Virus record (IMG/VR): IMGVR_UViG_3300044732_000890 | Coordinates: 1 to 50,688 of that record | Strand: one strand, 5' to 3' | DNA: 50,688 bases | DNA from: a virus | Taxonomy: Duplodnaviria; Caudoviricetes | Shown: positions 13,778 through 28,104 of the stretch, one piece after another | Layout: every line of letters starts with the position of its first letter | How positions within the stretch are numbered: the stretch's first letter is position 1 | Position numbers and translations under genes: made by a program | Notes under the pieces: model-generated | Seen by the model: the letters and a program-made list of their open reading frames with translations, nothing else | Told to the model about the DNA's origin: nothing | The model's database searches: none

Positions 13778-14611
13778 ATGTCAATCGTTAACATTTACGA
13801 CAGCATCAAGAGTCAGCATGCGCTGCGCAACGTCACTGCCCAGCCGGTTTTCCTCGGCGACGGCCGCCCCGTTCAGGGTAAAAAGGCCATTGTACTCGCC
13901 GACACCGGAGAGGCGATCTCTGTTGTTAGCGACCGCTACAAGGTCGTAAGCAACGAGGAGGTGATGAACGCTACACTGCAGGCTATTGAGACGGCTAAGT
14001 TGGACACCACCGACGCAACAGCCTCGGTTTCGTTTTCTAACAAGGGAGCGCGTACCATGGTTCGCATCATGCTTCCCGCTTACTCGGTGCTTTCCGGCAC
14101 CAACGAGACCAAAATGGAAATCGTCACGCTGAACTCCTACGATGGCGCATGGAAATATAGCAGCCGTGCAGGTGGCATTCGTCTAGCGTGCATGAACGGT
14201 CAGGTCATGGGTAAGATGATTGGTTCGTACTCGCAGTTTCACAATCAATCGCTGAACGTGCAGCGCGGAGCGGAGAATCTTGTTCGCATGATCGGTGATT
14301 TCTCTAAGTCGCAGGATTGGTTCCTTGCCATGATGAACCGTAAGGCCGATATTGACGATGTTCGCACTCTCGGCTCCAAGCTGCTTAATTTACCGACTGT
14401 GCAGTTTGACGAGAGCCGTGCTGGTAAGCGCCTGCTTTCCCTCTACGAGACGTACGCTCGTGAGATGGGCGCCAACGCTTACGCTGTGTACAACACGTTC
14501 ACGGACTTCATTACCCACCGCTCGCGTCACAAATCCGCTGTGGCCTCGAGCCGCCTGATCGATGAAAACACTTTTTCTACCAAGGTGCTTTCCTCGAATC
14601 TGTTCCACTAA
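13778..14611 (+). CDS. DUF932-family protein
   Basis: VVSDRYKVVSNEE, NSYDG, RLACMNG, AYAVYNTFTDFITH motifs. Confidence 0.8.
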   Translation: MSIVNIYDSIKSQHALRNVTAQPVFLGDGRPVQGKKAIVLADTGEAISVVSDRYKVVSNEEVMNATLQAIETAKLDTTDATASVSFSNKGARTMVRIMLPAYSVLSGTNETKMEIVTLNSYDGAWKYSSRAGGIRLACMNGQVMGKMIGSYSQFHNQSLNVQRGAENLVRMIGDFSKSQDWFLAMMNRKADIDDVRTLGSKLLNLPTVQFDESRAGKRLLSLYETYAREMGANAYAVYNTFTDFITHRSRHKSAVASSRLIDENTFSTKVLSSNLFH

Positions 14612-14668: not shown

Positions 14669-15112
14669 ATGACCAACGTAATCAAAATCACCAAGTCGGA
14701 CAAGCTTATGCCCCAGCAGCTTAAGCAAATTGACCGTATCGCAGAGCTTCTTACCAACCTGAATTGTGAATTCCGCATTCGCACCCCGGAAGGGTATTGC
14801 TTCGACAATATACTTTTGAAAAACCGGGGGAAGGGTCATTTGTCTCTCGATGACTCGGCAACCACAACCCACACTGAACAGAAGCCACGTATAAAGCGCG
14901 GTGAGATGAAGGCTTACCTCGATAATATCTTGGGCGGTATCAAGCTTGGAGAAGTTCGCGTTATCCCGATAGGTAAGTTCAATGGTCTTAACGGTACGTT
15001 TTCCAACTATGTTTCAGGTTATGCGTCAAGAATTTTCGGTAACGGTAGCTACTCAGTTTCTTGGGACAACGCAGATCGCAGCGTCTTGTTTCACCTCCAT
15101 GGAGGTCTTTAA
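14669..15112 (+). CDS. Hypothetical protein
   Basis: TAACGGAGA SD; flanked by GC hairpins. Confidence 0.7.
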   Translation: MTNVIKITKSDKLMPQQLKQIDRIAELLTNLNCEFRIRTPEGYCFDNILLKNRGKGHLSLDDSATTTHTEQKPRIKRGEMKAYLDNILGGIKLGEVRVIPIGKFNGLNGTFSNYVSGYASRIFGNGSYSVSWDNADRSVLFHLHGGL

Positions 15113-15180
15113 CAATCGAAGGGGGAGGCTTGAGCCTCCCCCATTTACCTCACAAAAGATCCACGATGACGTCGAAATAA

Positions 15181-15303
15181 ATGTCTTCAGCCCCCAACCG
15201 ACGCTTTCGGATGTCGTTCGGTAAGTTGCATAGCGAAGAAGCTAGACTAAAGATATCAGAAGCCCAACGCAAAAGATGGGCAATAAAGAAAGGTAAAGTT
15301 TGA
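15181..15303 (+). CDS. 40-aa basic peptide with NUMOD3-like DNA-binding motif (possible homing-endonuclease remnant)
   Basis: Own translation MSSAPNRRFRMSFGKLHSEEARLKISEAQRKRWAIKKGKV*; TGA overlaps PLP gene ATG; no clear SD. Confidence 0.5.
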   Translation: MSSAPNRRFRMSFGKLHSEEARLKISEAQRKRWAIKKGKV

Positions 15304-16241
15304 TGGCTCTCCCTACCCCAGCAGACCTCGACCGCCTCGCCGCCAAGCTCACGCCTTGGGAAAACCCGCAGGGTTTTTGGTTCAAGCGAGAAGACAAGTT
15401 TGCCCCGCTCGGTTACGGTGGCCCGAATGGATCAAAATTACGTCAGCTAATTCACCTCTTTGCCCGGCACAAGGGTAACGCTACGCATGTGGTGACTGGT
15501 GCGAGCATTCAGTCTCCGCAGCATAGCATGACCGCGTTCCTCGCTGCCGTGCACGGTCTCCCCTCCCTGCATGTCGTCGGTGCCACGACGCCAGAAACCA
15601 TTATGCGTCACCCCAACCCGCTCATCGCCGCCGGGTTCGGAGCCGCGTTTGACTATATCAAAGTTGGCTACAACCCGGCTTTGCAGAAGCGTGTGGCAGA
15701 GCTCAAACGGGAGATGGACGCAGCCTTCGAGGTGCCGTATGGTATCACGCTCGCTACCGACCTCTCCAGCCCTGAAGACCTCACAGCCTTTCACAGCGTT
15801 GGAGCGGCGCAAGTGGCGAACATCCCGGAGGAGGTGACCACGCTTATCGTACCGGCGGGAAGCTGCAACTCGCTAACCTCTGTCCTGCTTGGCCTCACAA
15901 CGCACAGCAACAACGTGCAGAAGGTCGTCAGCATCGGCATCGGTCCCTCCAAGATCGGCTGGGTGCGTGACCGGCTGCGCAAAATGAACGTGGACCCCGA
16001 CCGGCTCGCGTTTGAATGGAACCACAACATCTCCCTGCACGACAGCGATTATGCCAAGTACGGGGACCGTATGCCCGAGACGTTCGCCGGTATCAACTTC
16101 CATCCTACGTATGAGGGGAAGATGGTGCGGTGGATGAAGGAGCACGATATCTTCCGCGCCAACGCAGACTGTGGCTACGGCTTCTGGATCGTTGGCTCTG
16201 ATAGCAACCCAGAGGTATGTCGTCCTTTCTTTACGAATTAA
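15303..16241 (+). CDS. PLP-dependent fold-type II enzyme; likely amino-acid-thymidine decarboxylase of DNA hypermodification
   Basis: WFKRED...GGPNGSKLRQ (PLP lysine), VPAGSCNS, HPTYEGK; context with AADT and 5hmU kinase as in phages ViI and M6. Confidence 0.85.
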   Translation: MALPTPADLDRLAAKLTPWENPQGFWFKREDKFAPLGYGGPNGSKLRQLIHLFARHKGNATHVVTGASIQSPQHSMTAFLAAVHGLPSLHVVGATTPETIMRHPNPLIAAGFGAAFDYIKVGYNPALQKRVAELKREMDAAFEVPYGITLATDLSSPEDLTAFHSVGAAQVANIPEEVTTLIVPAGSCNSLTSVLLGLTTHSNNVQKVVSIGIGPSKIGWVRDRLRKMNVDPDRLAFEWNHNISLHDSDYAKYGDRMPETFAGINFHPTYEGKMVRWMKEHDIFRANADCGYGFWIVGSDSNPEVCRPFFTN

Positions 16242-16254
16242 ATTCGCACTGCCT

Positions 16255-16294
16255 AAAAATAACGCTTGACTTCCTCCCCCGGTGCGCCTAAATA
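16255..16294 (+). promoter_or_regulatory. Promoter P5 inside modification cluster
   Basis: AAAAATAACGCTTGACT (-35 16266-16271)-N17-TAAATA. Confidence 0.75.
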
Positions 16295-16337
16295 AGGTTC
16301 ATCGGGGGTTGGCCCCGCGTATAACGGAGATAGAATA

Positions 16338-16703
16338 ATGGCTCGTAACACCACTGGACATTCTGGCGAGAAGTTTGTTGAAGCTATGCTCGGTTTTCAG
16401 GGCTTCACGGCTCTCGTCGCCCCGGCGGGCAACCCTAACTGGGATATCATGGTCGCTGAAAGTGGTAAGAAAATTTCGGTAAAGGCCTCTAACTCGTCCG
16501 GTTTTGTAGCTGAGTTTTCAGCTACAGACACGTTCGATGTTCTGGCCGTAGTGGATGCATTTAATTCACGCTATCCACGTGTATGGTTCATCCCCCGCTA
16601 TATTGCGATCAAGCTCCCCACCGTAGGCGGTAAGGTGCGTATAAAAGCTTCGGATTTGAATTACGATCTTGCTCAGTTTGAAACCAACTTCGATGTCCTC
16701 TAA
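16338..16703 (+). CDS. Small PD-(D/E)XK endonuclease-like protein
   Basis: GHSGEKFV (motif I E), WDIMV (motif II D), ISVKAS (degenerate motif III). Confidence 0.6.
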   Translation: MARNTTGHSGEKFVEAMLGFQGFTALVAPAGNPNWDIMVAESGKKISVKASNSSGFVAEFSATDTFDVLAVVDAFNSRYPRVWFIPRYIAIKLPTVGGKVRIKASDLNYDLAQFETNFDVL

Positions 16704-16713
16704 CGGAGACCCC

Positions 16714-17457
16714 ATGACCACTCACTGGAAAATCCTAAACAAATATCCGTTCGAGCTGATTCCCGGCGAGGCTAAAGAGATGCCCGATGGAGATCTCTCA
16801 TACTATGAGTATCTGAACGGTCGCTGGAAGGAGACTGGCAAGAACGTGATGGCTATCGCGTGGCTGCTGCGCAACTTCCCGCAGGGTCTAAAGATTATCG
16901 AGCCGTTCGGCGGCTGTGGCGTGTTCTCGGTGGCTATTCAAGAGATAATGAAGCCAAGCTATCATCGCATCGGCGAGCTGGATGGCGACTGCTACAAACA
17001 GCTTACGCACGTTATGTCTCGCTATCCCAGCGCCGCTGTCTTCAACGATGATGCCCATCAGACCCTCGGCACCATCGCCGGGGACATCTACGTCTGCGAC
17101 TTCCCGTTCTTCACCCTGATCAAACACGAGACCGGGTATTGGGTTGAGGAGATGAAGCGTATAGTCGCCCAGCGTCCACGTGCTATCCTCATCACGGATG
17201 GAGCAAGCTGCCGTTACCACTTCACGGCTAAGGCTCTTTCCAACAGAGGCTACCCGGTCACCCCGGACCGTGAGAGCTACGCTTATTGCTTTGACCAGAT
17301 GATGTCCCGCACATACGACTATCACGTGACCGGGATGGTCTATCACGGCACATGTTTCTACATCCGAGTTGAGCCCGAGCCTCGTGAGATTGAGTTCCTG
17401 AAGCTGGAGGCTGGCTCGGGCGTCAACGGTCTGCGTCCCGACCCGAAAGGTATTTGA
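16714..17457 (+). CDS. SAM-dependent methyltransferase (amino-MTase-like) within hypermodification cluster
   Basis: IIEPFGGCGVFS (FxGxG motif I), acidic GELD (motif II), DDA, YVCDFPFF (DPPY-like motif IV); start ATG 16714 behind TAACGGAGA. Confidence 0.75.
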   Translation: MTTHWKILNKYPFELIPGEAKEMPDGDLSYYEYLNGRWKETGKNVMAIAWLLRNFPQGLKIIEPFGGCGVFSVAIQEIMKPSYHRIGELDGDCYKQLTHVMSRYPSAAVFNDDAHQTLGTIAGDIYVCDFPFFTLIKHETGYWVEEMKRIVAQRPRAILITDGASCRYHFTAKALSNRGYPVTPDRESYAYCFDQMMSRTYDYHVTGMVYHGTCFYIRVEPEPREIEFLKLEAGSGVNGLRPDPKGI

Positions 17458-17458
17458 C

Positions 17459-18460
17459 ATGACCATAGATTATCGCCCGCACCCAACCCGCGTCATGTAC
17501 TGCGAGGATCTCTACCGGGTCAACCTCGAGCATGGGATCATGCCGGGTCTCGTCTACCTCTACATGCCCGCTCTCAAACAGACCCTCAACTGGTCTGAGG
17601 AGCGTGCGCTGTGGTTCGCCTTCATCAACGGTATGACCCAGAACCCGCTCACCTCTCTGCTGATCCTTGAGCAGCTGCCGGATGTACCCGACCCCGGCGA
17701 CCCCATCACCACGTTTGACGAGTGGTTCAACCGTGAGTGGCCGCGCCTCTTCTTCGACACCGACCGGCTGAAGAACAAGCGCAACACGATATCTGCGATC
17801 AAGTCCTACGCCAAGCTCGTCGGCGAGTATGGCTCGCAGCAGCTTATGCTAGACAACCGTACCTATCCCGAGCTCTGGAACATCGTGTCCAACGGCTACT
17901 ACAGCTTCGGTCGCCTGTCCACGTTCTCGTATCTTGAGTACGTGCGGATCATGGGTCACGGATCCATTTGCGCCGACCTTATGGTCTCGGACAAAGGTGG
18001 CTCTAAATCCCACCGCAACGGTTTGCTGTTCCTGACTGGTCTTGACCATATGGTTAATGATCCCCGCGCTAAGAACGGGTTTGATGGCAACTATCAGGAC
18101 TACGACAAGATGTGCGGCTGGCTGACCGAACAGGCTAACGAGTTCCTGCGCCGGTTCACCGCTAAGCACACGTACCAGCATACCGGCTACTTTACATTTG
18201 AGTCGCAGCTATGTCAATTTAAAAATAATTTCTTTGGTCGACGTTATCCAGGATGCTACGCCGACATGGCGTTTGACCGGCTATTGAAACATGAAGACGC
18301 GTGGGGAAAGGACCGAGCGACGAAATTGATTTGGGATATCCGCACATCTCTTCCAGACTGGCTGCGTAACGAGGCTAAGAACGACAAACTGTCTATACCG
18401 GACCGGGCCAAGATCTTCCCGCGCACCGGCTTCCCGTACAGAGGAGAACATTTCCTGTGA
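17459..18460 (+). CDS. Amino-acid:DNA transferase (aGPT-Pplase2/AADT, HhH-glycosylase-like)
   Basis: ERALWFAFING, FDTDR, YYSFGRLSTFSYLEY, SHRNGL, FESQLCQFK, RRYPGCY. Confidence 0.85.
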   Translation: MTIDYRPHPTRVMYCEDLYRVNLEHGIMPGLVYLYMPALKQTLNWSEERALWFAFINGMTQNPLTSLLILEQLPDVPDPGDPITTFDEWFNREWPRLFFDTDRLKNKRNTISAIKSYAKLVGEYGSQQLMLDNRTYPELWNIVSNGYYSFGRLSTFSYLEYVRIMGHGSICADLMVSDKGGSKSHRNGLLFLTGLDHMVNDPRAKNGFDGNYQDYDKMCGWLTEQANEFLRRFTAKHTYQHTGYFTFESQLCQFKNNFFGRRYPGCYADMAFDRLLKHEDAWGKDRATKLIWDIRTSLPDWLRNEAKNDKLSIPDRAKIFPRTGFPYRGEHFL

Positions 18461-19332
18461 ACTCAACCCTCAAGCACTTCATAACCGAGCGCGAGGCCAT
18501 TCGTGTGCGCAAGGCCTCGGGTCAGCCCGCACCGTGGACAACCGACCCCATTTTACAGCAATATCGTTTCTGTAACGTCCACCGCCGCGACGACCGCGTG
18601 TCTCAGTGGCTGCTGAAGCACTATTATCCACACACCGCCAAGGGTGTGGACGCTTGGTTTCCGGCTTTGGTTGCCCGGTTCATCAACTGGCCTCCCACCC
18701 TGAAGCTCCTATTGGAGTCCGGCGTGGGGCTGGCAGCCGGGGAGGTGTGGAACCCTCATGCGTTCGAGGCGGTGATCGCTAGGCTCAAGTCTGCCGGCGA
18801 GAAGGTTTACACCGGAGCGTACATGATCTATCCGGGTAGTAGGGATGGCGACACCGCCGTGGCAAACAAGGAGCAGTTCCTCGCGCGGCAGGTCTTCGCC
18901 GGTGCGCGGGCTAACACCTCCAAGATTCGTCATGCCATCTGGCAGCTGAGCATAGAAAAGACGGTACACGAGCTCACCCAGAGCTACGGTATCTCTACTT
19001 TCATGGCAGGGCAGGTCGCCGCCGATTTGACTTACCTATACGATGCGCTGGACCTCGCCTTGGATAAGCGAACCTACGCACCTATGGGACCCGGCTCCAT
19101 CCGGGGTCTGAACCGTATACACGGCTTTAAGCTAACGCATACTTGGCAACCTCACGAATTTGTAGAGGCTTTGATGGATATTCATAGAGATATTGAGCGC
19201 GAGCTGGGAATTATGGACCTCACGCTTCACGATGTGCAAAACATTGCAGCTTGTGAATATGACAAATACCTGCGTGTGCTCAATGGTGAGGGTAAACCTC
19301 GCGCAAATTACCGACCAGAAACCGCTTTTTGA
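18457..19332 (+). CDS. 5-hydroxymethyluracil DNA kinase (aGPT-Pplase1/5HMUDK)
   Basis: FITEREAIR...PWTTDPILQQYRFCNVHRRDDRVS, FMAGQVAADL, GPGSIRGL, CEYDKYLR. Confidence 0.9.
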   Translation: MNSTLKHFITEREAIRVRKASGQPAPWTTDPILQQYRFCNVHRRDDRVSQWLLKHYYPHTAKGVDAWFPALVARFINWPPTLKLLLESGVGLAAGEVWNPHAFEAVIARLKSAGEKVYTGAYMIYPGSRDGDTAVANKEQFLARQVFAGARANTSKIRHAIWQLSIEKTVHELTQSYGISTFMAGQVAADLTYLYDALDLALDKRTYAPMGPGSIRGLNRIHGFKLTHTWQPHEFVEALMDIHRDIERELGIMDLTLHDVQNIAACEYDKYLRVLNGEGKPRANYRPETAF

Positions 19333-19333
19333 A

Positions 19334-19363
19334 CTTGACTTAACCCGTAAACCCGGCTAATCT
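19334..19363 (+). promoter_or_regulatory. Promoter P6
   Basis: CTTGACT (-35 19335-19340)-N17-TAATCT, then GATAACGGAGAA SD. Confidence 0.65.
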
Positions 19364-19389
19364 ATCGCAACAAGATAACGGAGAACTAG

Positions 19390-19989
19390 ATGCCAATCAT
19401 CATCAACCTGCGTGGAACGTCCGGCTCCGGCAAGACTACGGCCGCCCGGTTTTTCCTCAACAACTACACCAATATCGAAATGCGGCGCAGCGTGACCTCG
19501 CCCAAGGGCCGCACTTCATCTAAGATTATGGGTTATGCCATAGACGTTCCCACCTTGCAGCAGTCGCTGTATCTTGTCGGGGCGTACGGTGCCGTGTGCG
19601 GGGGCTTGGATACCATGGGCACTCAGGCCGAGCATGCCGATCTGATCCTCAAGGCCTACTCCGCCGGCAACGTGCTGTGCGAGGGTCTACTGCTGAGCTC
19701 AGTAAGCTCCGGGGCCACAGTCCCGGCGGCCATGATCGGGGCGGCCGGTAAGGAGCGTGTGATCTTTGCTTTTATGGACACTCCGCTAGACGTATGTTTG
19801 GACCGCGTGCGCGGCCGCCGAGCGGCCCGAGGCGATGATAAACCTTTCAACGAGACCAACACTCGTAAGAAGTATGAGGACACACAAGCCGCTCGTCAGC
19901 GACTTATTGACGAGGGCTGCCGTGTCGTAGACATCAGCCACCTCAACCCCGGACCCCAGCTCCTTTCTCTTTATCAGGACAACGAATAA
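19390..19989 (+). CDS. P-loop nucleotide kinase (candidate 5hm-dUMP kinase)
   Basis: IINLRGTSGSGKTT, CGGLDT, VLCEG, DTPLDVCLDRVRGRR lid. Confidence 0.8.
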   Translation: MPIIINLRGTSGSGKTTAARFFLNNYTNIEMRRSVTSPKGRTSSKIMGYAIDVPTLQQSLYLVGAYGAVCGGLDTMGTQAEHADLILKAYSAGNVLCEGLLLSSVSSGATVPAAMIGAAGKERVIFAFMDTPLDVCLDRVRGRRAARGDDKPFNETNTRKKYEDTQAARQRLIDEGCRVVDISHLNPGPQLLSLYQDNE

Positions 19990-19990
19990 C

Positions 19991-20947
19991 ATGCACTTCA
20001 TCTTCGAAAACTGCAACGACGCATGGCCGACGACGGTTCAGATGATACAAACATCTGGAGTTATCCGTAACAGTCGCAACGGTCGCGTTTCTGAATATCC
20101 GGATCCGGTTACGATAACATACGAGCGTCCGTATGAGCGGGTCTTGTTCTGCCCCTTGCGCAACATCAACCCCTTTTTGCACTTCTTTGAGCCACTTTGG
20201 ATTCTTGCCGGACGCCGGGATGTTGAGTTCCTTTCTAACATTGTTGGTCGTTTCCGCGACTATTCAGATGACGGTAAGGTATTCAACGCTGCCTATGGTC
20301 ACCGGCTTCGTTACCCTAACGATCAGATCGCCGAAGCTATTAAGCGTCTAAAGCGTAATCCGGACGATAGACAAGTCGTTCTTCAGATACGCAAGCCAGA
20401 CGACATTTACTACACGGGAAAGGACACCGCATGCAATTTGTCAATTGCGCTTAAGGTGCGTAATCGCTATTTGGACATTCACGTATTTAATCGCTCTAAC
20501 GACGTTGTTTGGGGCGGCCCTGCGGGAGGTGCAAATTACCCTCAGTTTACAACCATCCAGGAATATATTGCCGGTCACGTGGGTTGCGGTATTGGCCGGT
20601 ATCACCACACAACAGATAGTATGCACGCTTACATCGACAGCCCAGACTGGGACCGGGTAAAAGACGTTCAGGGTTATCACGACTTATACCTTTGGGACAA
20701 TGTTCCGCCATATCGTCTTTTTGATGGTTTGTTGTTCCCTGAACTGTTTGATCAAGATCTGCAGTTCTTCTTTAGCGAGCGGGCTACAACCGGATACGCC
20801 ACCTCTTACTTTAAGGATGTCGTTGGGCCGATGTGGGCCGCGTTTCAGGCGTATAAGCGTAGGGAGCAGGTAGATTTTTCCGCTATACGAGCCAGGGATT
20901 GGGCTTTTGCGGTTGAATCTTGGCTCGCGCGCAAAAATAAAGCTTGA
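19991..20947 (+). CDS. Thymidylate-synthase-family dUMP hydroxymethylase
   Basis: SRNG, NPFLHFFEPLWILAGR, YSDDG, AYGHR, DTACN (catalytic Cys), RSND, GANY (Asn = dUMP specificity), SMHAY; adjacent to 5hmU kinase. Confidence 0.88.
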   Translation: MHFIFENCNDAWPTTVQMIQTSGVIRNSRNGRVSEYPDPVTITYERPYERVLFCPLRNINPFLHFFEPLWILAGRRDVEFLSNIVGRFRDYSDDGKVFNAAYGHRLRYPNDQIAEAIKRLKRNPDDRQVVLQIRKPDDIYYTGKDTACNLSIALKVRNRYLDIHVFNRSNDVVWGGPAGGANYPQFTTIQEYIAGHVGCGIGRYHHTTDSMHAYIDSPDWDRVKDVQGYHDLYLWDNVPPYRLFDGLLFPELFDQDLQFFFSERATTGYATSYFKDVVGPMWAAFQAYKRREQVDFSAIRARDWAFAVESWLARKNKA

Positions 20948-20972
20948 CTTTCTTTTCTGGGCCGCCTATATT
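20933..20972 (+). promoter_or_regulatory. Promoter P7 overlapping the hydroxymethylase stop codon
   Basis: AAAAATAAAGCTTGACT (TGA within -35 is the stop), TATATT 20967-20972. Confidence 0.85.
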
Positions 20973-21018
20973 GGGGTTACTGAGCCGCTGATGGCTCGGC
21001 TGATAACGGAGAATTAAC

Positions 21019-27011: not shown

Positions 27012-27575
27012 ATGACTATCCGCACCGTCAAAGATGCTGACTCAATACATAAGCTCGTAGGTCTGTATGCCGCGCTTCAGTCAGCGCGAGTTTCGTCTGG
27101 ATACTTTGTAGAGGACCGGGTAGCTGATGTTTTATCTACGTTATACACCGGGACGTTAGTCAAGCGGTTCAAGATTAAATCTCCTAATTCAGATAGAAAA
27201 ACGAAACAGTTCGATGTAGCAATTCGTAACGGTAACTCTCTAGATGTGTTTGAAATTAAAACATACGCGGGAGATTCATTTACCTATTCTGAAGATACTG
27301 TGTTCAAGTCCATTTACACCGACTTGGAAGTTCTAAAATCCGCAAATCCCGGTGTTGATGTAAAGCTATACTATGTGTTTTCAGATATTGATAGTGAGTT
27401 TGCGATACGTATGAAGAAAGAAAAAGTTGTCGGTGTGATATCGTTTGCCGATATAGGTCTGAATGCAAACGAACTTATCATCGAAGGTATGATGCTAAAA
27501 TTCAATAAGAACCTCGCTGACCTGTCCATTTCTGATAATCTCAAGAAAGCTATAACTGATGAATTCTCAGCGTAA
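27012..27575 (+). CDS. PD-(D/E)XK restriction-endonuclease-like protein (AT-rich)
   Basis: GYFVE, FDVAI, VFEIKT spacing fits E...(P)D...ExK; overlaps MTase gene. Confidence 0.6.
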   Translation: MTIRTVKDADSIHKLVGLYAALQSARVSSGYFVEDRVADVLSTLYTGTLVKRFKIKSPNSDRKTKQFDVAIRNGNSLDVFEIKTYAGDSFTYSEDTVFKSIYTDLEVLKSANPGVDVKLYYVFSDIDSEFAIRMKKEKVVGVISFADIGLNANELIIEGMMLKFNKNLADLSISDNLKKAITDEFSA

Positions 27576-28104
27576 ATATAAGGTGATATACGCCGACCCG
27601 CCGTGGAACTTTGAAACGTACTCTGAAAAGGGACAAGTCAAAACCCCTCACAGACATTACGGTTGCATGACCGAAGCCGATATCGGAAAACTACCGATAT
27701 CAGATATTGCTGACAAGGACTGCGCACTATTTATGTGGATAATAGACAGTCATCTACACCACGCGATGAAAATTATTGAGCAGTGGGGTTTTACTTATAA
27801 AACTGTCGCGTTTGTCTGGGCTAAAACCACCAAGCATAACAAATGGCATTTTGGGCAAGGCTACTGGACCCGTAAAAACCCAGAAATATGTTTGATGGCC
27901 ACTAGAGGTTCTCCTAAAAAAGCTTCTTGGGCTGTACGTCAGCTTGTAGTTGCTCCGGTTAGGGAGCATTCTCGTAAGCCTGACGAAGTCCGGGAGGGTA
28001 TTGTTCAGCTGATGGGCGATGTACCTAGGATTGAACTGTTTGCAAGGACTACAACTCCCGGTTGGGACGTATACGGCAACGAAACAGATAAATTTAAACC
28101 ATGA
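27559..28104 (+). CDS. MT-A70-family adenine methyltransferase
   Basis: YKVIYADPPW, LFMW, WGFTYKT, HSRKP, RIELFAR, GWDVYGNE. Confidence 0.93.
   Translation: MNSQRKYKVIYADPPWNFETYSEKGQVKTPHRHYGCMTEADIGKLPISDIADKDCALFMWIIDSHLHHAMKIIEQWGFTYKTVAFVWAKTTKHNKWHFGQGYWTRKNPEICLMATRGSPKKASWAVRQLVVAPVREHSRKPDEVREGIVQLMGDVPRIELFARTTTPGWDVYGNETDKFKP

What the first reader, a model, noticed from the sequence alone, without database searches (positions are those of the whole stretch)
16714..17457. Extra SAM methyltransferase wired into a thymidine hypermodification pathway: candidate new DNA base (N-methylated aminoethoxy-T, possibly choline-like)
Seen: a Rossmann MTase (EPFGGCG, GELD, CDFPF) sits 1 nt upstream of the amino-acid:DNA transferase, between it and the PLP enzyme. 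No radical-SAM CxxxCxxC, flavin lyase or acetyltransferase gene was seen in the window. Established: phage ViI makes 5-(2-aminoethoxy)methyl-dU via O-seryl transfer plus PLP decarboxylation, whereas M6 needs a radical-SAM isomerase before its PLP step. DPPY/NPPY-type motifs mark amine-methylating MTases. Inference: this phage makes the ViI-type primary amine and then mono-, di- or trimethylates it, giving a base I do not recognise from characterised pathways.
Basis: partly seen in the sequence, partly recalled or inferred. Interest (0 to 1): 0.9.

Follow-up and report, generated by a model that had tools for sequence, protein, structure and literature searches.

The report
Add-on methyltransferase in thymine hypermodification cluster
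An uncultured phage carries, inside its gene set for chemically rebuilding the thymines of its DNA, an extra unnamed methyltransferase that travels with this pathway in many related phages and probably methylates the added amino group, which would give a DNA base nobody has described.

Summary
ORF 16714-17457 (247 aa) has no Pfam, PHROG or NCBIfam match. It folds confidently (pLDDT 94) as a class I SAM methyltransferase, nearest to nucleic-acid amino-methyltransferases (Trm1, RsmD, METTL5, KsgA-like). It ends 1 nt before the amino acid:DNA transferase (AADT) gene.

The family is tied to thymidine hypermodification. Of 50 distinct loci holding a homologue, 41 also hold an AADT, in five gene arrangements, with either a dUMP-hydroxymethylase or a Tet/JBP route to 5hmU. 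The other 9 are too short to judge. One metagenomic protein fuses this methyltransferase domain to an AADT, and another to a P-loop kinase.

The gene is optional: 10 of 50 related AADT loci carry it, and in most others PLP abuts AADT. It also occurs without the PLP enzyme, including in a complete 54.8-kb phage genome.

The window's AADT and PLP enzymes match ViI gp247 (serine transferase) and gp226 (decarboxylase), not the M6, PaMx11 or PhiW-14 enzymes.

Best reading: N-methylation of the side-chain amine on DNA. The target atom and methyl count remain inference. No paper I could search describes this step. The scan has noted other methyltransferase types in such clusters on other DNA.

The parts
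15300..16241 (+). PLP-dependent enzyme, homologue of the ViI gp226 O-seryl-thymidine decarboxylase
   Evidence: PALP 27.1 bits, below cut-off. phrog_3650 at 9e-78. BLASTP to ViI YP_004327553 gives 34% identity and E 8e-56, with window K46 aligned to ViI K92.
16338..16703 (+). 121-aa ORF of unknown function between the PLP gene and the methyltransferase; probably an insertion, not a pathway part
   Evidence: No Pfam, PHROG or NCBIfam hit. tblastn found it only in the window among the window and the 29 loci held at that point (L001-L029).
16705..16708 (+). GGAG ribosome-binding site, 5 nt before the ATG of the methyltransferase
   Evidence: Read from the sequence.
16714..17457 (+). 247-aa class I SAM-methyltransferase-fold protein of an unnamed family; candidate tailoring N-methyltransferase
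   Evidence: AF2 pLDDT 94.2. Foldseek top hits are Trm1, RlmCD, PH1948, TYW2, METTL5, M.BseCI and RsmD. No Pfam, PHROG or NCBIfam hit. Synteny and fusions.
16900..16920 (+). Motif I, EPFGGCG (SAM-binding glycine loop after beta1)
   Evidence: G67 and G69 are invariant and E63 nearly invariant in 133 relatives. Position.
16972..16983 (+). Motif II, GELD (acidic residue at the end of beta2)
   Evidence: D90 is invariant in the 28-row family. Position.
17095..17109 (+). Motif IV region, CDFPF, directly after beta4
   Evidence: D129 is nearly invariant in 133 relatives. P131 and F133 are invariant in the close family, while F132 varies.
17459..18460 (+). Amino acid:DNA transferase (aGPT-Pplase clade 2)
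   Evidence: PF18724 at 46.3 bits. Matches ViI gp247 at E 8e-20. No match in M6, PaMx11 or PhiW-14.
18457..19332 (+). HMUDK_hel protein (aGPT-Pplase clade 1 type helical protein)
   Evidence: PF18723 at 152.7 bits.
19390..19989 (+). P-loop kinase, candidate 5-hmdU DNA kinase
   Evidence: Weak PF18748 hit (E 1e-3, below cut-off) and AAA_33. Syntenic in nearly all related loci.
19991..20947 (+). Thymidylate-synthase-family enzyme, candidate dUMP hydroxymethylase
   Evidence: PF00303 at 59.2 bits, phrog_5131 at 1e-84.

Best explanation
ORF 16714-17457 encodes a SAM-dependent methyltransferase of an unnamed family, seen so far only in uncultured-virus and metagenome sequence. It is a dedicated but optional tailoring enzyme of the 5hmU-based thymidine hypermodification pathway.

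Proposed route in this phage:
1. The TS-like enzyme makes 5hm-dUMP, which is incorporated into DNA.
2. The P-loop kinase, with the HMUDK_hel protein, phosphorylates 5hmU on DNA.
3. The ViI-type AADT attaches an amino acid through its side chain, most likely serine through its hydroxyl.
4. The gp226-type PLP enzyme removes the carboxylate, leaving a primary amine (5-(2-aminoethoxy)methyl-dU or a close analogue).
5. The methyltransferase transfers one or more methyl groups from SAM to that amine on the DNA polymer.

In relatives that lack the PLP enzyme, the same family would methylate the free alpha-amine of the undecarboxylated conjugate.

Shown: the fold, the motifs, the linkage to AADT, the optional distribution and the ViI-type partners. 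Inferred: catalytic activity, DNA-level action, the nitrogen target and the methyl count.
For: Fold:
- AF2 pLDDT 94.2 with canonical strand order.
- Foldseek PDB top hits are nucleic-acid methyltransferases, many acting on exocyclic amines: Trm1 at E 1.1e-8 and TMq 0.55, then METTL5, M.BseCI, RsmD/YhhF, TrmN and METTL16.
- 11 of 133 relatives weakly match RrnaAD (KsgA/Erm), 7 match TRM5-TYW2, 3 match MTS and 1 matches TRM.
- An ESM Atlas neighbour cluster is auto-named rRNA adenine N6-methyltransferase family.

Linkage, centred on the methyltransferase:
- 67 loci give 50 distinct ones, and 41 of 50 hold an AADT on the same locus or contig.
- 20 are PLP-MT-AADT, as in the window.
- 1 has two tandem MT genes followed by AADT.
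- 12 are MT-AADT without PLP.
- 6 have a ParB-Tet_JBP-PLP::AADT fusion 4.4-8.5 kb away.
- 1 is a tight Tet_JBP-MT-PLP-AADT-kinase operon with overlapping stops and starts.
- 1 is AADT-MT.

Other linkage evidence:
- Homologues only 19-24% identical still abut an AADT (L125, L130) or lie 1.7 kb from one (L095).
- P0171 (609 aa) carries the MT domain (hhalign probability 99.9%, E 3.8e-36) fused to an AADT domain (PF18724, 6.5e-12). P0041 carries it fused to Ploopntkinase3.

Add-on character: among 50 distinct AADT loci with at least 2 kb upstream, the counts are MT+PLP+ 4, MT+PLP- 6, MT-PLP+ 31 and MT-PLP- 9. On the AADT tree the MT label needs at least 7 changes, 4 of them forced by starred branches.

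Why nitrogen:
- A PLP enzyme needs a free primary amine. Lee 2021 (passages read) reports that gp52 does not act on N-alpha-linked glycine.
- With no radical-SAM isomerase present, the amino acid must therefore be side-chain-linked.
- The one nucleophile common to the conjugate before and after decarboxylation is that amine, and the MT occurs both with and without PLP.

Other support: the phage already has a canonical DNA adenine methyltransferase (MT-A70, 114 bits, 27559-28104).
Against: - There is no biochemical evidence of any kind.
- Motif IV is not a canonical (D/N/S)PP(Y/F/W). The aromatic fourth position is not conserved, and distant members read DLPS or LNNIM.
- The Foldseek neighbours also include C5-uridine (RlmCD), O- (ChlM, fibrillarin, TrmR) and acp-transferring (TYW2) enzymes at similar scores, and TM-scores are only 0.4-0.55.
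- The amino acid used by the AADT is inferred from 29% identity to ViI gp247.
- Occurrence without PLP means the substrate differs between phages.
- In the Tet_JBP arrangement the MT lies several kb from the PLP::AADT gene.
- Both fusion proteins are single observations. P0171 is on one 111,642-bp contig and P0041 on one 1,897-bp contig.
- Absence of a gene from a fragmentary locus does not prove its absence from the genome.
Confidence: 0.5

Rival explanations
1. It is a pathway-dedicated methyltransferase, but it acts on another atom. Candidates are O-methylation of the carboxylate of the amino-acid conjugate, O-methylation of residual 5hmU (giving 5-methoxymethyl-U), or methylation of the uracil ring.
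For: Linkage to AADT is equally compatible with this. The Foldseek list includes the O-methyltransferases ChlM, fibrillarin and TrmR and the C5-uridine enzyme RlmCD. Motif IV is non-canonical, and four relatives read DFPR, recalling (from memory) the DPPR of m5U enzymes. The 2026 T-dioxygenase paper lists O-methyltransferase domains near phage 5mYOX genes (passages read).
Against: A carboxyl methyl ester makes no sense in the 20 loci where a decarboxylase sits next to the MT. A 5hmU O-methylase would not need an AADT, yet every locus with enough flank has one, and an MT::AADT fusion exists. C214, the only candidate catalytic cysteine, is Ser in two relatives (P0020, P0029) and Ala in the diverged L125, L130 and L095 homologues.
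Confidence: 0.17
2. It is an ordinary DNA or RNA base methyltransferase (m6A, m4C or rRNA/tRNA type) that merely sits in the phage's DNA-modification region and does not touch the hypermodified thymidine.
For: Nearest folds are RNA and DNA amino-methyltransferases. There are weak KsgA/RrnaAD matches in relatives. Phages often cluster unrelated modification genes.
Against: Linkage to AADT persists across five arrangements, two routes to 5hmU and identities from 77% down to 19%. Fusions to AADT and to the pathway kinase exist. tblastn found no homologue in 50,697 cultured phage records, with the window protein or with the distant relative P0043, and a peptide-pattern scan of 185,579 species genomes found none. 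No separate target-recognition domain shows up in 247 aa, and no DNA-methyltransferase family matches. The phage has its own MT-A70 enzyme.
Confidence: 0.1
3. It methylates the free small-molecule donor (an amino acid or amine) before the AADT transfers it, so the methyl group arrives with the donor.
For: Genomic linkage cannot tell donor tailoring from on-DNA tailoring. AADTs accept varied amines, as with 15599 Pplase2 and diamines (passages read). The protein is mildly acidic to neutral: pI 6.2, family median 6.6.
Against: An N-methylated alpha-amine could not form the aldimine that the adjacent PLP enzyme needs. The nearest folds act on nucleic-acid polymers. All characterised tailoring steps in this pathway act on DNA (Lee 2021 passages).
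Confidence: 0.08
4. It uses SAM or decarboxylated SAM to transfer a 3-amino-3-carboxypropyl or aminopropyl group rather than a methyl group, extending the side chain into a polyamine-like arm.
For: TYW2, an acp transferase, is among the top Foldseek hits (ranks 7 and 23), and the nicotianamine synthase MtNAS is at rank 46. 7 of 133 relatives match TRM5-TYW2 and 1 matches Spermine_synth. A neighbouring PLP decarboxylase could process an acp group.
Against: These hits score no better than true methyltransferases. The MT occurs without PLP in 6 of 10 MT-positive AADT loci. From memory, motif I lacks the GGGDG-type signature of aminopropyl transferases.
Confidence: 0.07
5. It is a catalytically inactive SAM-binding or scaffolding partner of the AADT.
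For: An MT::AADT fusion exists. There is translational coupling to the AADT in the window, with a 1-nt gap.
Against: Motif I glycines, the beta2 acidic residue and D129 are conserved over 133 diverged relatives, which fits retained catalysis. In one arrangement the gene is several kb from the AADT.
Confidence: 0.05

Closest known systems
Salmonella phage ViI / Ackermannviridae 5-NeOmdU pathway (gp67/gp243 kinases, gp160, gp247 serine:DNA transferase, gp226 PLP decarboxylase; Lee et al. 2018 and 2021)
   Same: The window has the same enzyme set: a TS-like hydroxymethylase, a P-loop kinase, HMUDK_hel, an AADT matching gp247 (E 8e-20) and a PLP enzyme matching gp226 (E 8e-56, lysine aligned). No radical-SAM enzyme is present.
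   Different: The window carries an extra SAM-methyltransferase gene between PLP and AADT. Searching the ViI record with the family profile gave no match, though that tool states an empty answer shows nothing. tblastn of the window protein found nothing in any of the 50,697 cultured phage records. Here the genes form one compact operon in a ~51-kb phage, and identities to ViI are only 29-34%.
Other characterised thymidine tailoring enzymes: M6 gp53 radical-SAM isomerase and gp52 decarboxylase, PaMx11 gp47 flavin lyase and gp48 acetyltransferase
   Same: The logic is the same. An optional enzyme reshapes the AADT-installed group on DNA, and modules recombine across metavirome contigs (Lee 2021 passages).
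   Different: The chemistry differs (methyl transfer). The window's AADT and PLP do not match the M6, PaMx11 or PhiW-14 proteins. As late as Aug 2026 the listed tailoring repertoire does not include methyltransferases (PMC13458397 introduction passage).
tRNA mnm5U synthesis: SAM-dependent N-methylation of 5-aminomethyl-uridine by the MnmC methyltransferase domain or MnmM (recalled; Lee 2021 only notes that PaMx11 gp47 resembles the MnmC FAD domain)
   Same: This is the closest analogue of the proposed reaction: methylation of a primary amine carried on C5 of a uracil in a nucleic-acid polymer.
   Different: The substrate there is RNA, not DNA. No sequence-family relationship was detected, since the window protein matches no Pfam or NCBIfam model at E <= 0.01, and MnmC and MnmM are not among the 38 PDB rows printed.
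KsgA/Erm (RrnaAD) and Trm1 amino-dimethyltransferases
   Same: Class I fold. The N-terminal ETGKN helix plus the motif I-IV order resembles the KsgA layout. Trm1 is the top structural hit. Both enzyme types put two methyl groups on one nitrogen (the dimethylation is recalled and named in the hit titles).
   Different: The protein is not a member. The query has no Pfam hit, the best relative scores 20.1 bits against a cut-off of 24, the TIGR00755 hit is 19 bits against a cut-off of 171, and the TM-score is about 0.55.

Membership tests
Class I (Rossmann-like) SAM-dependent methyltransferase superfamily | Seven-stranded sheet with a glycine-rich motif I after beta1, an acidic residue at the end of beta2 and motif IV after beta4 | tested here: met
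   The AF2 model (pLDDT 94.2) has strands at 60-63, 83-87, 107-110, 125-128, 157-162, 204-210 and 215-220. EPFGGCG, GELD, DAH and DFPF sit at the expected places. Foldseek finds 961 PDB chains at E <= 1e-3. G67 and G69 are invariant in 133 relatives.
Amino (N-) methyltransferases with motif IV (D/N/S)-P-P-(Y/F/W) | Asp/Asn, then Pro, then an aromatic residue directly after beta4 | tested here: inconclusive
   D129 is nearly invariant and P131 is invariant in the close family. Position 130 is Phe, not Pro. The fourth position varies (F, V, L, R, H, Y, S). Distant members read DLPS or NNIM.
RrnaAD / KsgA-Erm adenine dimethyltransferases (PF00398, TIGR00755) | Score above the curated cut-off of the family model | tested here: not met
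   The query has no hit at E <= 0.01. 11 of 133 relatives give weak hits, best E 2.1e-7. The L023 homologue scores 20.1 bits against a cut-off of 24, and 19.3 against 171. The PDB profile search gives E 0.31.
DNA N6-adenine / N4-cytosine methyltransferases (MT-A70, N6_Mtase, D12 class) | Match to a DNA methyltransferase family model and presence of a target-recognition domain | tested here: not met
   No Pfam hit. The protein is 247 aa with no recognisable extra domain. M.BseCI appears only at TMq 0.49. The window's true MT-A70 gene is elsewhere, at 27559-28104.
ViI-type thymidine hypermodification cluster | dUMP hydroxymethylase, 5-hmdU DNA kinase, clade 1 and clade 2 aGPT-Pplase proteins and a gp226-type PLP decarboxylase, with no radical-SAM isomerase | tested here: met
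   PF00303 59.2 bits, PF18723 152.7 bits and PF18724 46.3 bits. The P-loop kinase matches only weakly (PF18748, E 1e-3). No PF04055 hit.
ViI-type thymidine hypermodification cluster | The product is 5-(2-aminoethoxy)methyl-dU made from serine | not testable with these tools
   Donor specificity rests on 29% identity to gp247. It needs LC-MS of reconstituted or virion DNA.
tRNA nm5U N-methyltransferases (MnmC methyltransferase domain, MnmM) | Match to the family models | tested here: not met
   No Pfam or NCBIfam family at all at E <= 0.01. This is a functional analogy only.

The most novel reading that the evidence does not exclude
The family is a plug-in N-methylation module for amino-acid-derived DNA bases, and it can methylate exhaustively. 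In PLP-containing phages such as this one it would make a permanently charged, choline-like 5-(2-trimethylammonioethoxy)methyl-dU. In PLP-less phages it would make a betaine-type N-methylated O-seryl-thymidine. Tandem paralogues (L002) would divide the successive methylations between them. This would be the first SAM-dependent methylation of a hypermodified side chain in DNA and the first quaternary-ammonium DNA base.
Probability: 0.13. Interest if true: 0.9.

Novelty: new variant of a known kind. Interest (0 to 1): 0.72.

Why it matters
Thymidine hypermodifications protect phage DNA from restriction and other nucleases, and they are a source of enzymes for writing new chemistry onto DNA. The tailoring enzymes described so far are radical-SAM isomerases, PLP decarboxylases, flavin lyases and acetyltransferases.

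A methyltransferase module that moves between AADT pathways would add a new reaction class and predicts at least two undescribed DNA bases, one with and one without decarboxylation. Methylating the amine would change its charge behaviour, bulk and reactivity. That may let the phage escape defences that recognise the primary-amine forms.

The family is common in marine and freshwater viromes (50 distinct loci here). It is invisible to Pfam-based surveys because it has no family model.

The prediction is directly testable, because natural 5-NeOmdU DNA from Ackermannviridae phages is available as a substrate.

Tried and rejected
- **TTG start at 16669.** Rejected, because the homologues begin at the ATG at 16714.
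- **Cultured-phage relatives.** tblastn of the methyltransferase and blastn of 15000-21000 against 50,697 phage records found nothing. Neither did the distant relative P0043.
- **Prokaryote genomes.** The pattern scan of genome contigs found 37 pattern matches, none of them a relative.
- **Fused forms.** The search for homologous proteins with lengths 'longer' found none among 452 candidates, which the tool itself calls weak evidence. The fusions came instead from the representative search.
- **Contexts of distant family members.** Two alignments (A3, A4) were too diverse for the search for related loci. The single proteins P0043, P0171 and P0041 gave no viral locus.
- **PF00291 search of five records.** It found nothing even in two records that do hold the PLP gene, so I replaced it with a custom profile.
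- **Idea that the 180-aa ORF upstream of the MT in PLP-less phages replaces the PLP enzyme.** Rejected. It has no family hit, and it also occurs about 3 kb upstream in PLP-containing loci.
- **Idea that the 2OG-FeII_Oxy_3 gene beside the MT in L006 is a conserved partner.** Rejected. It was found only on that one contig.
- **Complex prediction of AADT + SAM + MT.** No verdict; score 0.00 in two runs, controls not run. It counts neither for nor against binding.
- **Papers I could not see.** Iyer et al. 2013 is not held. Supplements are closed. The metavirome cluster figures and datasets of Lee 2021 and the Pfam tables of the 2026 T-dioxygenase paper might already show this ORF as an unlabelled gene.
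- **Literature searches for a methyltransferase step in thymidine hypermodification.** (listings). I read passages in PMC8989533, PMC5889632, PMC13229309, PMC13458397, PMC11472151 and bioRxiv 10.64898/2026.05.19.726188. None describes such a step.

**Rows dropped before counts**
- 17 of 67 loci were dropped as duplicates, judged by the first 300 nt of the MT gene.
- 12 of 81 loci were dropped as duplicates, and 19 with under 2 kb upstream were set aside.
- AADT segments under 280 aa and identical rows were left out, giving 97 rows. The set mixes an MT-centred and an AADT-centred sample, so MT frequency cannot be read from the tree.
Full report
**Observation.** The ORF is as described. It runs from ATG 16714 to TGA 17455-17457. 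GGAG lies 5 nt before the start, and the AADT start codon follows the stop after one base. The 27 homologues all begin at the same methionine, so the longer TTG frame from 16669 is not the gene. EPFGGCG, GELD and CDFPF are at residues 63-69, 87-90 and 128-132. One detail to add: a 121-aa ORF (16338-16703) also lies between the PLP gene and this gene. It has no family match, and tblastn found no copy of it in the 29 loci held at that point.

**What the protein is.** It matches no Pfam, PHROG or NCBIfam model at E <= 0.01.
- An AlphaFold2 model built on 28 homologues is confident (mean pLDDT 94.2, pTM 0.91). It shows the seven-strand class I methyltransferase order, with motifs I, II, III (DAH) and IV directly after strands 1 to 4.
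- Foldseek against the PDB gives 961 chains at E <= 1e-3. The best are Trm1 (E 1.1e-8, TMq 0.55), RlmCD, PH1948, TYW2, the carbamoyl N-methyltransferase Asc-Orf2, METTL5, M.BseCI, ChlM, RsmD/YhhF and TrmN.
- A full HMMER search finds 145 cluster representatives at E <= 1e-3 and 56 at E <= 1e-10.
- Of 133 of these scanned against Pfam, 11 weakly match RrnaAD (KsgA/Erm), 7 match TRM5-TYW2, 3 match MTS and 1 matches TRM.
- Across the 133, E63, G67, G69, L97, D129, D162 and Y189 are invariant or nearly so.
- Motif IV is only loosely of the amino-methyltransferase type. D129 is kept, P131 is kept in the close family, and the fourth residue varies.

The protein is therefore a bona fide SAM-methyltransferase-fold protein. 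It is a remote cousin of nucleic-acid amino-methyltransferases and a member of no named family.

**Context in the window.** All co-oriented are:
- the PLP enzyme (15300-16241)
- the 121-aa ORF
- the methyltransferase
- the AADT (PF18724)
- HMUDK_hel (PF18723)
- a P-loop kinase
- a TS-family enzyme
- an HD phosphohydrolase, a MazG-like protein and the DNA polymerase

The record is a 50,688-bp virus contig that CheckV rates 94% complete. It holds no detectable radical-SAM, DAO-type or GNAT gene (these are weak negatives). A separate, canonical MT-A70 DNA adenine methyltransferase sits at 27559-28104 (114 bits).

**Linkage, seen from the methyltransferase.** Scans of viral and metagenome contigs gave 23 + 44 loci, which reduce to 50 distinct ones. 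Of these, 41 also carry an AADT:
- 20 have the window's order, PLP-MT-AADT. The MT-AADT gap is 9-33 nt or the genes overlap.
- 1 has two tandem MT paralogues before the AADT (L002).
- 12 have MT-AADT-kinase-HMUDK_hel-TS with no PLP gene.
- 6 have a ParB_N gene, a Tet_JBP dioxygenase and a 712-aa PLP::AADT fusion on the other strand, 4.4-8.5 kb from the MT.
- 1 is a compact MazG-Tet_JBP-MT-PLP-AADT-P-loop-kinase operon, with overlapping stops and starts from Tet_JBP through AADT (L023).
- 1 has AADT upstream of a 35%-identical MT (L072).

The other 9 loci are too short on the relevant side to judge. The PLP-less arrangement is real. The complete 54,769-bp genome G001, which has direct terminal repeats, has no homologue of the PLP enzyme by protein search or by an unfiltered custom profile. 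The MT thus follows the AADT whether 5hmU comes from a dUMP hydroxymethylase or from a DNA T-dioxygenase.

**Linkage, seen from the AADT.** An AADT profile finds 581 viral relatives, of which the best 80 plus one earlier locus were examined. After dropping 12 duplicates and 19 loci with under 2 kb upstream, 50 remain. By tblastn they split into MT-PLP- 12, MT-PLP+ 31, MT+PLP- 3 and MT+PLP+ 4. A family profile then found three more, strongly diverged MTs (19-24% identity). Two sit directly before the AADT in Tet_JBP loci, and one is 1.7 kb from it. That makes MT+ 10 of 50, with MT+PLP- 6 and MT-PLP- 9. In many MT-negative relatives the PLP gene directly abuts the AADT, for example with gaps of 9-27 nt in L085, L089, L090, L093, L155, L158 and L159.

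On a FastTree AADT tree of 97 rows the MT label needs at least 7 changes (4 forced by starred branches; shuffled mean 27), and the PLP label needs 11. Identity to the window also decouples:
- In the Tet_JBP/fusion phages the MT is 59-62% identical, but PLP is only 36-41% and AADT only 32-36%.
- In L125 and L130 the AADT is 50-52% identical, but the MT only 19-23%.

The MT is therefore a mobile, optional add-on to a pathway that is complete without it.

**Fusions.** Two representatives of the wider family are fused to pathway enzymes:
- P0171 (609 aa): residues 9-237 match the family profile at hhalign probability 99.9% (E 3.8e-36), and residues 375-530 match PF18724 (AADT) at E 6.5e-12.
- P0041 (348 aa): joins the MT domain (E 2.7e-28 to the query) to Ploopntkinase3 (E 3.8e-14).

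Each fusion is a single observation, on contigs of 111,642 and 1,897 bp.

**Which pathway type.** The window's AADT matches ViI YP_004327568, which is gp247, the serine:DNA transferase of Lee 2021 Table 1 (E 8e-20, 29% identity). It also matches Mycobacterium phage Magpie gp3 (E 2.9e-42), and it finds nothing in M6, PaMx11 or PhiW-14. The PLP enzyme matches ViI YP_004327553, which is gp226, the O-seryl-thymidine decarboxylase (E 8e-56, 34%). Window K46 aligns to the proposed Schiff-base K92. It finds nothing in M6.

**Mechanism.** These steps are inference. According to the passages of Lee 2021 that I read, PLP enzymes need a free primary amine, and M6 gp52 does not act on N-alpha-linked glycine without the radical-SAM isomerase. 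A PLP enzyme without that isomerase therefore implies a side-chain-linked amino acid, as with serine in ViI. The MT occurs both with and without the decarboxylase, in AADT clades of similar divergence. Its target should therefore be a group present both before and after decarboxylation, and that group is the amine. A carboxyl ester target would conflict with the 20 PLP-MT-AADT loci. The fold neighbours that methylate exocyclic nitrogens of nucleic acids fit this, but they do not prove it. I put N-methylation of the side-chain amine on DNA at 0.5. The broader statement, that this is a dedicated tailoring enzyme of the pathway acting on whatever atom, I put at about 0.75.

**Rivals.** They are methylation of another atom (0.17), an unrelated base methyltransferase (0.10), donor methylation before transfer (0.08), acp or aminopropyl transfer (0.07) and an inactive partner (0.05). 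Evidence for and against each is in the rival entries.

**Known or new.** Searches for a methyltransferase step in thymidine hypermodification found none.
- The main texts of Lee 2018 and Lee 2021 mention methyltransferases only as mechanistic comparisons.
- An Aug 2026 paper still lists the tailoring repertoire as radical-SAM isomerases, PLP decarboxylases, flavin lyases and acetyltransferases.
- The 2026 T-dioxygenase paper tallies O-methyltransferase and N6/N4-methyltransferase Pfam domains near phage 5mYOX genes without assigning them a role. This family, having no Pfam model, would not appear in such tallies.
- Supplements were closed and Iyer et al. 2013 is not held, so an unlabelled depiction of this gene in print cannot be excluded.
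- Earlier notes of this scan report other methyltransferase types (SET, FkbM, Hen1-like, one beside an M6-type set) in hypermodification clusters on other DNA. A sequence look-up found this family only in this window.

**Limits.** There is no biochemistry. The donor amino acid, the target atom, the methyl count and action on DNA are all inferred. Most loci are fragments.

Noticed in passing
window 16338-16703: A 121-aa ORF with its own upstream spacer sits between the PLP gene and the methyltransferase. It has no family match. tblastn found no copy of it in the 29 loci held at that point (L001-L029). Related loci have only a 12-403 nt gap at this place. It looks like an inserted gene rather than a pathway part.
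   Followed up: partly
window 27012-28104: A canonical MT-A70 DNA adenine methyltransferase (27559-28104, 114 bits) overlaps the end of a 187-aa ORF with a weak NERD nuclease-domain hit (E 0.006). It is followed by a YqaJ/PD-(D/E)XK-like gene.
   Followed up: partly
L024 1414-3552 (also L031, L036, L046): A 712-aa PLP::AADT fusion protein is preceded by a Tet_JBP dioxygenase and a ParB_N gene. This is a thymine-oxidising route to hypermodification, in phages that also carry a 59-62% identical copy of the methyltransferase a few kb away.
   Followed up: partly
L023 182-5582: A compact MazG-Tet_JBP(454 aa)-MT-PLP-AADT-P-loop kinase operon, with overlapping stops and starts from Tet_JBP through AADT. 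It is the tightest packaging of the methyltransferase with the pathway.
   Followed up: yes
L002 518-2321: Two tandem paralogues of the methyltransferase (45% and 61% identical to the window's; the first has E in place of D in motif IV) lie directly before the AADT. They are preceded by a 111-aa ORF that looks like the N-terminal fragment of an N6 DNA methylase (PF02384, E 1.4e-4).
   Followed up: partly
L006 7441-7995: A 2OG-FeII_Oxy_3 oxygenase gene overlaps the start of the methyltransferase on one contig. It was not found beside the methyltransferase anywhere else.
   Followed up: partly
L015 7487-8029, L018 7060-7575: A conserved 170-180 aa ORF (MNIFFLH...) with no family match sits directly upstream of the methyltransferase in the PLP-less phages. 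It lies about 3 kb upstream in some PLP-containing ones.
   Followed up: partly
proteins P0171 and P0041 (metagenomic, no locus obtained): Single-copy natural fusions of the methyltransferase domain to an AADT domain (609 aa) and to a P-loop nucleotide kinase 3 domain (348 aa).
   Followed up: partly
L080 (Mycobacterium phage Magpie) 1-3462: The closest cultured relative of the window's AADT (35%, E 2.9e-42) is gp3 of cluster-B-type mycobacteriophages. It sits at the genome left end between a ParB-like nuclease gene, a hypothetical gp2 and an 'adenylate kinase'. These phages may carry an unstudied thymidine hypermodification.
   Followed up: no
window 13778-14611 and related loci: A DUF932 gene is conserved a few genes upstream of the modification cluster in both PLP-containing and PLP-less relatives.
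   Followed up: no
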